A stretch of DNA of 64,000 nt, taken from Paramecium tetraurelia (Eukaryota). A model generated the notes under the pieces. The model had not been told where the DNA came from, ran no database searches, and worked only from the letters and a program-made list of their open reading frames with translations. A program made the position numbers and the translations under genes. Location: contig CT867989.1 of assembly GCA_000165425.1 (NCBI GenBank), positions 1-64,000 on the forward strand, written 5' to 3'. Positions within the stretch are counted from its first letter, which is position 1; every line of letters begins with the position of its first letter. Shown piece by piece: positions 55,517-58,032 of this stretch.

Positions 55517-56221
55517 TCAATGTTTTTGAGAACAATTATGAAAATTCAGATTGTTCATCATCCCAATCTATAAGTCCGAATTCAACTCATCTAAAATTTG
55601 TTAATATTGACTGATCGACTATTCCAAATCAGAAATATAAGTTTATTTCTACGCAATATAATACTTCACATCATCCAACATCTATTCATAATAAATTTTC
55701 TAATATTAATTGTGTTTTAATTGCCTCCCCGTTTATTACAACTTGGGTGCTGTTACCTCTATTTTCTTAATTAATTGAGCTCTCTCCTTTTACTTACTCT
55801 TCATTTTCCTCTTCTCCCTTTCTATTTCATCCAATTCATTTAAAGCAATCTCATCCTGCTCTCTGAACTCAATGAATTGTTGTTTCTAAGTAAAGGGGGC
55901 CTTCTAGAATGCCTTTGAGTCGACTTCGTAATCGATTAGGGATATCTAATATTTATCCTTTTATAGTTCAACGCATTTTTAATATTCCTCTTCCTAGCAT
56001 TTGCTCAGTTTCTCCTGGATTTTATAAAAATTATTTGTTTATTTTTCCTCCAAATTTGAGTATTTTTCATATTGGCTTTTAACTCCATTGAATAGGATTC
56101 TTTTCTCTTTTAATTCTTTTTTTTCATTTTATAACTTAAGTTGTAGTTTCTTGATTTTGACATTGGTTTTGTCTATCTCTTACTTCAAGAAATCAATTTG
56201 TTTATTAGTCCCTTAAGACAT
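55517..56221 (-). CDS. Coiled-coil protein
   Basis: MSQGTNKQIDFLKQEIDKTNVKIKKLQLKL...NCSQKH*. Confidence 0.75.
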
Positions 56222-56364
56222 ATTTTATTATTTGTTTGTTAAAATAAATAATTTTTAAAGAATCAGTAATTATAGTTCCGTTTAAATTGAAACTTAAACA
56301 CCCATATATAATCAGCATTTCTGTCTTATAAATAATATATTATTTCATAATAAAAATCAGAAAC

Positions 56365-57295
56365 TCATATTAATGAGCACCATCCTGGTTTTTAATTTTA
56401 GACGTCTTCCTCCACTTTTTTGAATTGTTTTTATTGAATGATATCATTAATAAGGCCAGTAAACATTTAATTGACATTGGATCCATTCTTGGCTGAGGTC
56501 TCATAAAAGAGTGCTTTGAATTAAGCAGCCAACTACTTTCCTTCATCGTAGGCAATAACTCTTTCAGAAGCTAAATCAGTTTTATTTCCAACAATAACAA
56601 TGGATGGAACATAATCTTGCATCTTAAATAACTATTAAAATAACAACAAAGTGTTTTTGATATCTTCAAAACTTTCTAAAGAGTTGATTGCATATGTGAA
56701 TATCAACCCTTCCTTATCCTTCATCCATTGGGTTCTCAAGGATGTGTATGCTTCTTAACCACAGGTGTCCGATATCTTTGTGAATGGATATACAATTTAC
56801 TTCGATTTGGCATTGTTACTCACCTACGATTACTCTTTTTGTGTATTTATCCAAAAGAGTGAGACTGTATTCTTCAAAAAATTCATTGTTAACCCATCGA
56901 GTGGTCAAATTGGATTTTCCAACAGAACCCATTCCCAACAATGAAATCCTGTATTAAACTAATTATTTTGATTCTGCTGAAGAATTTTAAAAATTAGAAT
57001 TATAATTATTGAACTCCTCTCCCTATAATGATAATACATTTTGGGCATACGCTGGATATGAAATAATTCCCTCCCATTTAGATCCTGTCTATGTCCAAAA
57101 TCTCCTTGCCTGATTGATCAAATATCCTAGACGCTCTTATTTCTAATAATGATGATGTCCAGAACCTAAAACTGCTGAGCACATCTGCATGAATTTCCTT
57201 CGGTCGGTTTCTTTCCTTAAATAATGCACCTTCATTGATTTACGTGGATTCCCATTATTATATATTTGTATTGTAACATTATTGGTATTTATCAT
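56365..57295 (-). CDS. Ras-family GTPase with N-terminal DCX/KHA-like domain and CaaX box
   Basis: GMGSVGKS, EEYSLTLLDKY, DTCGQE, GNKTD, ETSAK, CSLI*; N-terminal VTIQIYNNGNPRK...RIFDQSGKEILDIDRIQMGGNYFISSGEEF after removing introns 57143-57165 and 57023-57050. Confidence 0.88.
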
Positions 57296-57441
57296 ATAAA
57301 TTATTATATTTTCTTTATGATTATCATTATACCAAAATAAACTTATGTTGAACTAAACAAAGTGCTTTTATGACTTTGCCCTCTGCAGAATTGATATTAA
57401 ATTAATATAATACGAATTTGAGAATATAAGAGTGAATTAGT

Positions 57442-58032
57442 TCATTGTTGTTTTTTTGTGCTAAAGTGGCTTAAGTAATTTTGGAGAATGGTTCTGGCAA
57501 AGGGTTTGACTCGGTTAAGACAACTCCTCAATTGTGCATCTGGTATTTATGCATGTTTCGATATGACGGTTAAATTGATACCGCCATATTAAGAATATAT
57601 GATATCAGATGCCAACTTTATTGCCAACGCATTCTAAATTTACTTTGGCAGTTTGTTCACCAACTATCTAATTGTATTGAGCATTATTTGACAAGCCTTC
57701 GTGGCCTTATTGTCCATTTTGAGTTTCTTGCATAAGTTAGGTAGACTATTGTTCAGTTGGGTCTCAATCAAAGAAGACAAAAACTGAATCTTCGAGTTAG
57801 CCATTACAGGCTCAAGATTCAATTACTTCATTGCGATATGGATTACAGCCTAGGCATACTAGGATGAGTTGGGTATTTAAATCGAAGACAAAATTTAAAC
57901 ACATTGCTTCTCAATCTCCATGTTTAGATCCATTTTGCCAATTTAATGGCTAATTTCTTCATATAATGAAATTTATTTTGTGGGAGTTTATTCTCCTTCC
58001 GTAAATTTGGGAATGGGAGTCCATTTTGACAT
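57442..58032 (-). CDS. Helical protein, possibly cyclin/TFIIB-fold
   Basis: Intronless MSKWTPIPKF...LPNLCKKLKMD...ALAIKLASDII...STKKQQ*; the fold call is an inference. Confidence 0.7.

What the first reader, a model, noticed from the sequence alone, without database searches (positions are those of the whole stretch)
56365..57295. DCX/KHA-like (beta-grasp) domain fused to a prenylated Ras-family GTPase
Seen: removing two canonical introns (23 and 28 nt) gives VTIQIYNNGNPRKSMKVHYL...CSAVLEIRASRIFDQSGKEILDIDRIQMGGNYFISSGEEF, in frame with a full Ras-type G domain ending in CSLI. No other ATG precedes the P-loop. Known: this pattern matches doublecortin/KHA domains such as the KCTD9 N-terminus (NG..., G..I.DI..I...GEPF), which are ubiquitin-like folds, as are Ras-binding domains. 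The effector loop is divergent (EEYSLTLLDKY vs DEYDPTIEDSY). Inference: this could be a membrane-anchored Ras switch that binds microtubules or carries its own cis-effector. I do not recognise this architecture from characterised Ras proteins.
Basis: partly seen in the sequence, partly recalled or inferred. Interest (0 to 1): 0.8.

Follow-up and report, generated by a model that had tools for sequence, protein, structure and literature searches.

The report
Doublecortin-domain Ras GTPase of Paramecium
A Paramecium gene really does encode a lipid-anchored Ras-type molecular switch with a doublecortin-type (microtubule-binder-like) domain fused to its front end, a combination found so far only in Paramecium and never studied at the bench.

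Summary
It has an N-terminal beta-grasp domain (about residues 1-80), a disordered linker of about 15 residues, a complete Ras-family G domain and the CaaX end CSLI. The end of the N-terminal domain and the P-loop lie in one exon, so these are not two genes. Stranded poly(A) RNA reads cover exactly this span on this strand, dip at all three introns and cross the intron-2 junction. The N-terminal domain is a doublecortin (DC) domain. Its only significant sequence relatives are DCDC1-like multi-DC proteins. Orthologues pass Pfam thresholds for DCX or DCX2_DCDC1. The AlphaFold model matches solved DC domains best (Z 10.5-11.9; TM about 0.7). The fusion is conserved in aurelia-complex species (two ohnologues) and in P. 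bursaria, and was not found elsewhere. Public databases already hold the proteins with automatic domain labels, but I found no paper on the architecture. Microtubule binding, or docking of the DC domain on its own G domain, is inference. This is a new variant of known kinds, of moderate interest.

The parts
56365..57295 (-). Whole coding region of the DC-Ras gene (ATG 57295, TGA 56367-56365); 284 aa after splicing, ciliate code
   Evidence: RNA coverage limited to ~56355-57300 on this strand
57166..57295 (-). Exon 1: residues 1-43 plus one base; strands 1-2 and the helix of the DC domain
   Evidence: Pfam DCX2_DCDC1 E 0.03 on this exon alone; AF2 secondary structure
57143..57165 (-). Intron 1, 23 nt, GTTCTG..TTAG
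   Evidence: Its removal is needed for the frame. The depth dip is 4.25 and 4.67 against 11-13 beside it. No junction reads were listed.
57051..57142 (-). Exon 2: residues 44-74, the C-terminal half of the DC domain (..ASRIFDQSGKEILDIDRIQMGGNYFISS)
   Evidence: Pfam Ubiquitin_DCDC1 E 0.048 and DCX E 0.062 on this exon alone
57023..57050 (-). Intron 2, 28 nt, GTATGC..TATAG
   Evidence: spliced junction seen in 3 reads of this gene and 32 reads of the ohnologue
56801..57022 (-). Exon 3: end of the DC domain (GEEF), linker NNYNSNFQNSSAESKQL, P-loop GMGSVGKS, switch I YSLTLLDKY, strands 2-3 of the G domain
   Evidence: One exon spans the domain boundary, so the fusion does not depend on any splice call.
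56776..56800 (-).
   Evidence: placed by the gap-free fit to P0002-P0006; depth dip 2.5 and 1.5; no junction reads listed
56365..56775 (-). Exon 4: switch II DTCGQE, NKTD, ETSAK, hypervariable tail, CaaX CSLI, stop
   Evidence: (Pfam Ras E 1.3e-28 on the long frame)
56661..56662 (.). TA where one public run's contig carries 70 extra letters: probable germline internal eliminated sequence site inside exon 4
   Evidence: table 8 (X1 record 2)

Best explanation
Shown: this is a single expressed Paramecium gene for a 284-aa protein. Its parts are one doublecortin-type (DC) beta-grasp domain, a ~15-residue disordered linker, a complete Ras-family GTPase domain and a C-terminal CaaX prenylation box. 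All GTP-binding and hydrolysis motifs are intact, including the equivalents of Ras G12, T35 and Q61. The fusion is conserved, with both domains under similar constraint, across the aurelia complex (two ohnologues) and in P. bursaria.

Inferred mechanism: the protein works as an ordinary GTP/GDP switch held on a membrane by its prenylated tail. The DC domain supplies a second address, most likely tubulin or microtubules, as DC domains do in doublecortin, DCLK and Toxoplasma TgDCX. The switch would then act where membranes lie against microtubule arrays, such as the cortex and basal bodies, cilia, and oral or contractile-vacuole ribbons. Its diverged effector loop implies partners other than Raf-type effectors. 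My odds: architecture and DC fold about 0.9-0.95; microtubule or tubulin as the DC domain's ligand about 0.35.
For: Gene model and expression:
- Searches give the model. It fits P0002 without gaps, 270 of 284 identical, and every single retained intron gives an early TGA.
- One search gives strand-specific RNA limited to the gene, dips at the three introns and junction reads for intron 2. 159 of 215 and 117 of 204 laid reads are at least 99% alike.

G domain:
- Pfam Ras at 147.9 bits against a cut-off of 21.6, residues 100-261 of P0002.
- The best solved relatives are KRas, Rap1b and R-Ras2, E about 1e-32. P-loop, T35, DTxGQE, NKxD and SAK all align.
- The CaaX end is CSLI, CSLL or CSLV in 5 of 5 full-length aurelia orthologues.

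DC domain:
- phmmer of residues 1-95 of P0002 against 1.84 billion representatives gave 24 hits at E<=1e-3.
- Of these, 7 of the 7 long hits that I scanned are strong multi-DCX/DCDC1 proteins. Named ones are 'doublecortin domain-containing protein 1-like'.
- Pfam DCX2_DCDC1 scores 28.7, 29.7 and 29.9 bits (cut-off 27.8) on P0004, P0003 and P0006, and 26.4 on P0002. Classic DCX scores 29.4 bits (cut-off 22) on P. bursaria P0030.
- The AF2 model of residues 1-95 has pLDDT 84.8 and order b-b-a-b-b-b.
- Foldseek's best matches are TgDCX 6b4a (TM 0.71/0.73, rmsd 1.9 over 80 columns, E 2.7e-5), TgDCX in the conoid fibre 9y9z, DCDC2 2dnf, and DCLK and DCX N-DC.
- VIA-align gives Z 11.9, 11.4, 11.2 and 10.5 for four DC domains, against about 8 for generic ubiquitin-like folds.

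Conservation, window protein against P. bursaria: DC domain 37 of 80 identical, G domain 81 of 170.

Precedent: prenylated Ras-family GTPases with an N-terminal targeting domain exist as PX-Rheb and FYVE-Rheb, read as attachment 'via both termini' (PMC5869587, passages read).

That DC domains bind microtubules is established knowledge: Burroughs et al. PMC1949818, passages read; and the titles of PDB entries 4atu, 6rf2 and 9y9z.
Against: - No test of tubulin binding was possible.
- The domain is single, whereas doublecortin uses a tandem.
- Its closest sequence relatives are DCDC1-type repeats, and I could not document their ligand: search listed 7 of the 10 papers it found, and none is on DCDC1 mechanism.
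- The net charge of the domain is only +1 to +3.
- Pfam scores are near threshold. P0002 falls below the DCX2_DCDC1 cut-off, and aurelia proteins score only 15-16 bits on classic DCX.
- CIDE-N domains score nearly as well structurally, Z 9.9-10.0.
- Introns 1 and 3 have no junction reads.
- All protein-level tests used the 95%-identical P. primaurelia orthologue P0002 as a stand-in, because the window's spliced product could not be handed to the tools.
Confidence: 0.5

Rival explanations
1. The DC domain is a built-in pseudo-effector or autoinhibitory module. As a ubiquitin-like fold on a ~15-residue flexible tether, it docks on its own G domain, or on a neighbour's, in a nucleotide-dependent way, much as Ras-binding and RA domains do. 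This would gate access of real effectors or drive clustering.
For: - complex prediction with the G domain (residues 94-268), GTP, Mg and the DC domain (1-85) as partner gave the verdict 'weak support'. The median score was 0.41 (runs 0.46, 0.41, 0.41) against a best control of 0.09. Partner pLDDT was at least 88 and the runs agree in at least 95% of contacts.
- By the tool's calibration, the mark was reached by 51 of 78 solved complexes and 2 of 108 mismatched pairs. At 0.60 or under it was reached by only 5 of those 78, and by all 4 mismatches that passed.
- The linker is disordered, pLDDT about 41 for residues 83-92, and long enough to allow back-folding.
- The switch I loop has diverged in the aurelia lineage but is nearer canonical in P. 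bursaria (YDPTFWDTY).
- A Ras-binding ubiquitin-like fold (ELMO1 RBD with RhoG) is among the structural matches at Z 8.4.
Against: - By the tool's own calibration, such a weak pass is more often wrong than right.
- It may also come from memory of the many solved Ras/ubiquitin-like-domain complexes. No interface was reported, and the calibration held no ride-along ligands.
- The full-length AF2 model has pTM of only 0.60, and the five models range from 51 to 79 mean pLDDT. No confident fixed domain packing follows from that.
- RBD/RA folds rank well below DC domains, Z about 8 against 11-12.
Confidence: 0.2
2. The DC-type domain is a generic protein-protein adaptor or oligomerisation module, like KHA, CIDE-N or PB1 domains. 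It recruits a non-tubulin partner or makes dimers, and microtubules play no part.
For: - A KHA cluster was first in the language-model look-up, 0.82, with DCX second at 0.78.
- Bona fide DCDC1-like proteins also hit Pfam KHA, so the families overlap.
- CIDE-N domains (DREP3, FSP27), which pair head to tail, score Z 9.9-10.0.
- Burroughs et al. class DCX with CAD/CIDE as adaptor beta-grasp domains (PMC1949818, passages read).
Against: - Pfam KHA did not match P0002 or P0004 at E<=1 and scored 0.09 on P0030.
- 0.82 is below the look-up tool's own lead threshold.
- The top four structural matches and all significant sequence matches are DC domains.
Confidence: 0.2
3. This is a gene-model artefact. 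The DC exons and the Ras exons belong to two adjacent genes, or the N-terminal part is untranslated or non-coding.
For: - No junction reads were listed for introns 1 and 3.
- The 2005-era public model of the ohnologue, P0001 'Ras_A03' of 307 aa, differs from the present models.
Against: - Exon 3 alone runs from the end of the DC domain (GEEF) through the linker into the P-loop, with no TGA and no in-frame ATG before the P-loop Met.
- RNA coverage is continuous from about 57300 to about 56355 on one strand, with none in the 100 nt upstream.
- The same 284/290-aa architecture is annotated in P. primaurelia, P. sonneborni, P. tetraurelia and P. octaurelia, and as DC+Ras in P. bursaria.
- P0001 is explained by reading introns 1 and 2 through in frame, since 23+28 = 51 nt.
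Confidence: 0.03

Closest known systems
Canonical Ras/Rap GTPases (KRas4B, Rap1b, R-Ras2)
   Same: The G domain is about 40% alike with all five G motifs, E about 1e-32 to solved KRas, Rap1b and R-Ras2 chains. It has a C-terminal CaaX box.
   Different: It carries an ~95-residue N-terminal DC domain plus linker. The effector loop is YSLTLLDKY, not YDPTIEDSY. The P-loop is GMGSVGKS and switch II is DTCGQE. The tail has no second cysteine and no clear polybasic run.
Doublecortin / doublecortin-like kinase (DCX, DCLK1)
   Same: Same DC beta-grasp fold: Z 11.9 to DCX N-DC 5ikc and 10.5 to DCLK 1uf0. In DCLK the DC module also sits N-terminal to a signalling enzyme domain (recalled architecture; Burroughs et al. 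mention kinases fused to doublecortin).
   Different: One DC domain, not a tandem. The partner domain is a small GTPase, not a kinase. Only 16-17% identity.
Toxoplasma TgDCX (conoid-fibre DC protein of another alveolate)
   Same: Best Foldseek match: 6b4a, TM 0.71/0.73, rmsd 1.9 A, 21% identity. It also matches TgDCX bound in the conoid fibre, 9y9z. TgDCX also has a single DC domain.
   Different: The 6b4a title places TgDCX's DC domain C-terminal. That it is paired with a P25-alpha domain is recalled. It has no GTPase and no lipid anchor.
DCDC1/DCDC5-like multi-DC proteins
   Same: These are the closest sequence relatives of the N-terminal domain, E 3e-11 to 1e-3. The best Pfam models are DCX2_DCDC1 and Ubiquitin_DCDC1.
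   Different: They are 570-1840-aa proteins with 3-6 DC-type repeats and no G domain.
PX-Rheb and FYVE-Rheb / TbFRP (Ras-family GTPases with an N-terminal targeting domain)
   Same: A lineage-specific accretion of a localisation domain at the N-terminus of a Ras-family GTPase. In Cryptista and flagellate SRT308 the CaaX box is kept (PMC5869587, passages read; TbFRP PMC3593210, search listing only).
   Different: Those domains bind the lipid PI3P and the GTPase is Rheb. Here the domain is a cytoskeleton-type DC fold on a Ras/Rap-like GTPase. The paper's main text has 0 occurrences of doublecortin, DCX or Paramecium.

Membership tests
Ras family of small GTPases (Pfam PF00071; Ras/Rap-like) | Profile match above the curated threshold over the whole G domain | tested here: met
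   P0002, 95% identical to the window protein, scores 147.9 bits against a cut-off of 21.6 over residues 100-261. The window's exons 3 and 4 alone score E 4e-7 and 1.3e-28.
Ras family of small GTPases (Pfam PF00071; Ras/Rap-like) | G1-G5 motifs with catalytic residues: P-loop GxxxxGKS, switch I Thr, DxxGQ, NKxD, SAK | tested here: met
   GMGSVGKS..SLTLL.. with T aligned to KRas T35, DTCGQE, GNKTD and ETSAK, in the window translation and in the KRas alignment.
Ras family of small GTPases (Pfam PF00071; Ras/Rap-like) | C-terminal CaaX prenylation box | tested here: met
   CSLI in the window protein; CSLI, CSLL or CSLV in 5 of 5 full-length aurelia orthologues. Prenylation itself was not tested.
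Ras family of small GTPases (Pfam PF00071; Ras/Rap-like) | Canonical Ras effector loop (YDPTIEDSY) for Raf/RA-type effectors | tested here: not met
   YSLTLLDKY in the aurelia proteins; YDPTFWDTY in P. bursaria. It is therefore Ras-like, not an orthologue of Ras proper. No subfamily tree was built.
Rheb | Orthology to Rheb | tested here: inconclusive
   None of the 60 listed PDB hits, out of 802 matched, is Rheb. The P-loop keeps Gly at the Ras-G12 position; that Rheb has Arg there is recalled. Two papers report no conventional Rheb in ciliates or alveolates (PMC3236823; PMC5869587; passages read). No tree was built.
Doublecortin (DC/DCX) domain superfamily (Pfam PF03607, PF24478, PF25510) | Profile match above a curated threshold | tested here: met
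   PF24478 scores 28.7, 29.7 and 29.9 bits (cut-off 27.8) on P0004, P0003 and P0006. PF03607 scores 29.4 (cut-off 22) on P. bursaria P0030. The nearest orthologue of the window protein, P0002, falls just short at 26.4. So 4 of the 5 family members tested pass one model. The window's own spliced protein could not be scanned whole; its single exons give E 0.03-0.06.
Doublecortin (DC/DCX) domain superfamily (Pfam PF03607, PF24478, PF25510) | Reciprocal sequence similarity to bona fide DC repeats | tested here: met
   Of the 24 hits at E<=1e-3, I scanned 10 with Pfam. All 10 carry a DCX-clan model at E<=1e-3: 7 long proteins strongly, 3 short ones weakly. Two unscanned hits (P0011, P0017) look like unrelated repeat proteins. 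The A2 profile, which includes those DC repeats and so is not independent, hits doublecortin C-DC at 4.6e-9.
Doublecortin (DC/DCX) domain superfamily (Pfam PF03607, PF24478, PF25510) | DC-type beta-grasp fold | tested here: met
   AF2 pLDDT 84.8. Foldseek ranks 1-13 are all DC domains, with TM to query 0.63-0.71. VIA Z is 10.5-11.9 for four DC domains.
Doublecortin (DC/DCX) domain superfamily (Pfam PF03607, PF24478, PF25510) | Binding to tubulin or microtubules | not testable with these tools
   Needs co-sedimentation or imaging.
KHA domain (Pfam PF11834; KCTD9 / plant K+ channel) | Profile match above the curated threshold | tested here: not met
   No KHA row at E<=1 for P0002 or P0004. P0030 scores E 0.09, 13.2 bits against a cut-off of 29.6. 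Only a feature-based lead at 0.82.

The most novel reading that the evidence does not exclude
Paramecium has made a Ras switch that reads or writes the state of the microtubule cytoskeleton directly. A prenylated GTPase has its own DC domain, which either tethers it to cortical or ciliary microtubules or folds back on the switch region. Nucleotide state and microtubule or tubulin binding would then be coupled within one 284-aa polypeptide, giving a minimal membrane-microtubule signalling link with no known counterpart among characterised small GTPases.
Probability: 0.2. Interest if true: 0.75.

Novelty: new variant of a known kind. Interest (0 to 1): 0.45.

Why it matters
Small GTPases nearly always find their place through lipid tails and separate partner proteins. 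Covalent fusion of a cytoskeleton-binding fold to a Ras-family switch would be a compact, genetically tractable way to couple membrane signalling to microtubule arrays. That bears on the ciliate cortex, whose patterning is still poorly understood.

It would also add a third kind of N-terminal accretion, a protein-binding or cytoskeletal domain, to the lipid-binding PX and FYVE domains already described for Rheb.

The stakes are limited. The fusion appears confined to one genus, its parts are well-known families, and the sequences are already public with automatic labels.

A practical point: the older public model of the ohnologue ('Ras_A03') reads two tiny introns through in frame and so hides the DC domain.

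Tried and rejected
- Whole genome: none is held for this window, so paralogues and Ras regulators (GEF, GAP) could not be sought in the genome.
- My first placement of intron 3 (28 nt at 56827-56800) was wrong. It was replaced by 56800-56776 after comparison with orthologues.
- RNA holders: no indexed RNA holder was listed. The RNA evidence comes from laying raw reads of two runs with the same species label.
- Read laying listed no formal 'joints'. With 58-nt reads, only loose ends mark the splice sites.
- Metagenome scans for more distant DC-Ras genes:
  - A2 was too diverse to search with.
  - A3 matched 590 pattern stretches, none confirmed.
  - P0008 was too short.
  - A4 matched 326 stretches, none confirmed.
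  - Ciliate introns and TAA/TAG glutamine codons may defeat this tool, so this says little about absence.
- Short DC-like ORFs from unnamed contigs (P0008 of 43 aa, P0018 of 62 aa, P0022 of 89 aa, P0025 of 74 aa) may be first exons of similar genes in other ciliates.
- Sequence search of PDB with the whole protein found only G-domain matches, none to residues 1-94.
- Literature: 9 searches found no paper describing a DCX/doublecortin domain fused to a Ras-family GTPase, or this Paramecium protein. Subscription journals and database-only annotation are outside that library.
- Earlier notes of this scan: nothing on this place or these words.
- Neighbouring ORFs (55520-56221 and 57445-58032, minus strand) gave no Pfam family above threshold. 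There are no tRNA genes in the window.
- I did not look for a myristoylation or palmitoylation signal beyond reading the ends: the N-terminus is MINTNN (no Gly2) and the only tail cysteine is the CaaX one.
Full report
**What the window is**

The DNA is 21-34% G+C. Long frames open only when TAA and TAG are read as glutamine. Introns are 23-28 nt. The best protein matches are Paramecium proteins. So this is macronuclear DNA of a Paramecium of the aurelia complex. No whole genome is held for it.

**The observation**

On the minus strand an ATG at 57295 opens a frame that ends at the TGA at 56367-56365.

A third intron, 56800-56776 (25 nt), lies in the G domain. Comparison with annotated orthologues fixed it.

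The spliced product is 284 aa. It aligns without a gap to the annotated 284-aa P. primaurelia protein P0002, 270 of 284 identical. It aligns to the 290-aa ohnologue type P0003-P0006 with 257-261 of 284 identical. Retaining any one intron gives a TGA at codon 121, 130 or 193.

The key point for the fusion is that exon 3 (57022-56801) alone contains:
- the end of the N-terminal domain (GEEF);
- the linker;
- the P-loop and switch I.

It has no stop, and no in-frame ATG before the Met inside the P-loop. The two domains therefore cannot be two genes.

**Transcripts**

Two oligo-dT, stranded RNA runs carrying the same species label were laid on 56100-57600.
- 215 and 204 reads of 58 nt lay on it, and 159 and 117 of them are at least 99% alike.
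- All have the first mate on +, which in the usual stranded libraries means RNA of the minus strand.
- Depth is confined to about 56355-57300. It is zero at 57324-57425, so the upstream gene is a separate transcript.
- Depth falls in each 51-nt bin that holds an intron: 4.3 and 4.7 against 11-13; 4.4 and 6.4 against 12-25; 2.5 and 1.5 against 9-24 and 3-16.
- No formal joints were listed.
- Three reads in X21 carry, before 57050, the letters of 57011-57021. That is the exon 3/exon 2 junction of this gene.
- 12 and 20 reads run from 57022 into a sequence that encodes the same YFISS with two synonymous changes. Together with other loose ends encoding ERVISY and YGESK, as in P0004, these show that the ohnologue is also expressed and is spliced at the same place.
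- Introns 1 and 3 rest on the frame, on the orthologous models and on the depth dips.

**The G domain**
- Pfam Ras scores 147.9 bits (cut-off 21.6) over residues 100-261 of P0002.
- The window's own exons 3 and 4 score E 4e-7 and 1.3e-28.
- The best solved relatives are KRas, Rap1b and R-Ras2, E about 1e-32.
- In that alignment GMGSVGKS, the switch I Thr, DTCGQE (Gln kept), GNKTD and ETSAK are all in place. The effector loop reads YSLTLLDKY where KRas has YDPTIEDSY.
- The P. bursaria orthologue has the more canonical YDPTFWDTY.
- The tail ends CSLI (CSLL or CSLV in some orthologues). It has no second cysteine.
- No Rheb chain is among the 60 listed of 802 PDB matches.
- Two papers whose passages I read report no conventional Rheb in ciliates or alveolates (PMC3236823; PMC5869587).
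- I built no subfamily tree, so 'Ras/Rap-like' is as far as this goes.

**The N-terminal domain**

Sequence evidence:
- The window's exon 1 and exon 2 alone give weak hits to DCX2_DCDC1 (E 0.03), Ubiquitin_DCDC1 (0.048) and DCX (0.062).
- On whole orthologues, DCX2_DCDC1 scores 26.4 (P0002), 28.7 (P0004), 29.7 (P0003) and 29.9 (P0006) bits against a cut-off of 27.8.
- Classic DCX scores 29.4 bits (cut-off 22) on P. bursaria P0030. It scores only 15-16 bits on the aurelia proteins.
- Pfam KHA did not match P0002 or P0004 at E<=1, and scored 0.09 on P0030.
- phmmer of residues 1-95 of P0002 against 1.84 billion representatives, without a word filter, found 24 proteins at E<=1e-3:
  - the Paramecium cluster itself;
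  - sixteen proteins of 843-1838 aa and two of about 570 aa, most matched at several stretches;
  - five ORFs of 42-89 aa.
- I scanned ten of these with Pfam. All ten carry DCX-clan models, and the seven long ones do so at E 1e-16 to 1e-77.
- The named ones are 'doublecortin domain-containing protein 1-like' from echinoderms, a ray and a frog. Others come from Diphylleia, Chromosphaera and Mesostigma.
- Two hits (P0011, P0017) are repeat proteins. One cluster member is named MucBP from a bacterial MAG. They have only weak per-repeat matches and I regard them as spurious.

Structure evidence:
- AlphaFold2 on a 19-row alignment gave pLDDT 84.8, with order b-b-a-b-b-b and a disordered tail from residue 84.
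- The full-length model gave pLDDT 78.9 and pTM 0.60, with the linker at residues 83-92 at about 41.
- Foldseek against the PDB puts DC domains at ranks 1-13:
  - TgDCX 6b4a (TM 0.71/0.73, rmsd 1.9 A over 80 columns, 21% identity, E 2.7e-5);
  - TgDCX in the conoid fibre 9y9z;
  - DCDC2 2dnf;
  - DCLK and doublecortin N-DC.
- VIA-align over 48,161 representative chains gives:
  - Z 11.9 (5ikc), 11.4 (2dnf), 11.2 (6b4a) and 10.5 (1uf0) for DC domains;
  - 9.9-10.0 for CIDE-N domains;
  - about 8 for generic ubiquitin-like folds, including ELMO1 RBD.

**Distribution**
- The word-based searches found the fusion in P. primaurelia (both ohnologues), P. sonneborni, P. tetraurelia and P. octaurelia.
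- They also found it in P. bursaria at 49% identity (250 aa; the model lacks the C-terminus).
- The next best hits are plain 189-193-aa Ras-like proteins at 37-41% identity.
- In the exhaustive search with the DC domain, only 1 of 24 hits has the size of a DC-Ras protein, and it is Paramecium.
- This is not proof of absence:
  - P. bursaria's full protein was itself not listed; only a 42-aa fragment of it was.
  - The word-based search saw only 343 candidates.
  - Two metagenome scans confirmed nothing.
  - Four short DC-like ORFs from unnamed contigs could be first exons of similar genes.
- Against P. bursaria, the DC domain keeps 37 of 80 residues and the G domain 81 of 170. The linker keeps 4 of 15. 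Both domains are under similar constraint.

**How it probably works**

Shown: an expressed, conserved, single polypeptide with a DC fold, a flexible linker, an apparently competent Ras-type switch and a prenylation box.

Inferred: the prenyl tail puts the switch on a membrane and the DC domain gives a second address.
- DC domains are microtubule or tubulin binders in doublecortin, DCLK and TgDCX (PDB titles; PMC1949818).
- Ciliates are built around membrane-apposed microtubule arrays.
- On those grounds I favour a membrane-microtubule tether, at about 0.35.
- The precedent is PX-Rheb and prenylated FYVE-Rheb, read by their authors as attachment through both termini (PMC5869587).

Against this reading:
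- there is a single DC domain;
- it is nearest to DCDC1-type repeats, whose ligand I could not document;
- its net charge is only +1 to +3.

Rival readings:
The G domain with GTP and Mg against the DC domain scored 0.41 (runs 0.46, 0.41, 0.41) against a best control of 0.09. Partner pLDDT was at least 88 and contacts agreed at 95% or more.
- The tool calls this weak support. The mark was reached by 51 of 78 solved and 2 of 108 mismatched pairs. At 0.60 or under it was reached by only 5 of the 78, and by all 4 passing mismatches. It warns that likeness to solved complexes can give such a pass.
- I put back-folding at about 0.2.
- I put a non-tubulin adaptor or oligomerisation role at about 0.2.

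**What is known, and novelty**
- The ohnologue has been public since about 2005 as 'Ras_A03' (Q3SCY4, P0001). That 307-aa model reads introns 1 and 2 through in frame (51 nt), so exon 2 is scrambled and no DCX family is recorded for it.
- Newer models carry automatic PF24478/PF25510 labels, and one UniRef cluster is named after the DCDC1 domain.
- Nine full-text searches found no paper on a DCX-Ras architecture or on this protein.
- The Rheb survey has 0 occurrences of doublecortin, DCX or Paramecium in its main text. I did not read its supplements.
- I file this as a new variant of known kinds: two textbook domains in an undescribed, genus-restricted combination.

**Verdict**

The DC-domain-plus-prenylated-Ras reading is supported. 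The KHA likeness, microtubule binding and cis-effector role are not shown. Interest is 0.45.

**Limits**
- All protein-level tests used orthologues, chiefly P0002 at 95% identity, because a spliced product cannot be handed to the tools.
- No tubulin-binding, localisation or nucleotide data exist.
- Absence outside Paramecium is provisional.

Noticed in passing
window 56661-56662 (inside exon 4): One public run's contig (X1, record 2, 425 nt) matches 56509-56662 and 56661-56861 with 70 extra letters between, at a TA dinucleotide. A second run's contigs break at 56654-56685. This looks like a short germline internal eliminated sequence (IES) interrupting the coding sequence, as is usual in Paramecium.
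   Followed up: partly
P0001 (public protein 'Ras_A03', ohnologue of the window gene): The 307-aa model keeps introns 1 and 2 in frame (23+28 = 51 nt). Residues 44-91 are therefore wrong and the DC domain goes unrecognised. The newer 290-aa models correct this.
   Followed up: yes
P0030 (P. bursaria orthologue, 250 aa): The model stops soon after ETSAK and has no CaaX box, probably because a 3' exon was missed. Its switch I (YDPTFWDTY) is closer to canonical Ras than that of the aurelia proteins.
   Followed up: no
window 56355-57300, RNA reads: About a quarter to two fifths of the laid reads carry systematic differences (for example at 56867, 56870, 56903 and 56912). Their loose ends encode the ohnologue's residues, so both whole-genome-duplication copies are expressed in these samples.
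   Followed up: partly
window 55520-56221 (-) and 57445-58032 (-): The flanking genes sit only about 145 nt from the Ras gene on either side. One is a 234-aa lysine/glutamine-rich, coiled-coil-looking ORF and the other a 196-aa ORF. Neither has a Pfam family above threshold.
   Followed up: partly
P0011 and P0017 (hits): These are long repeat proteins with many weak per-repeat matches to part of the DC domain. One cluster member is a bacterial MAG protein named MucBP. They are likely summed-score false positives rather than prokaryotic DC domains.
   Followed up: partly
P0008, P0018, P0022, P0025 (unnamed contigs): These are short stand-alone ORFs of 43-89 aa, 26-66% identical to the DC domain. 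P0008 stops exactly where exon 1 ends. They may be first exons of DC-Ras genes in other ciliates.
   Followed up: no
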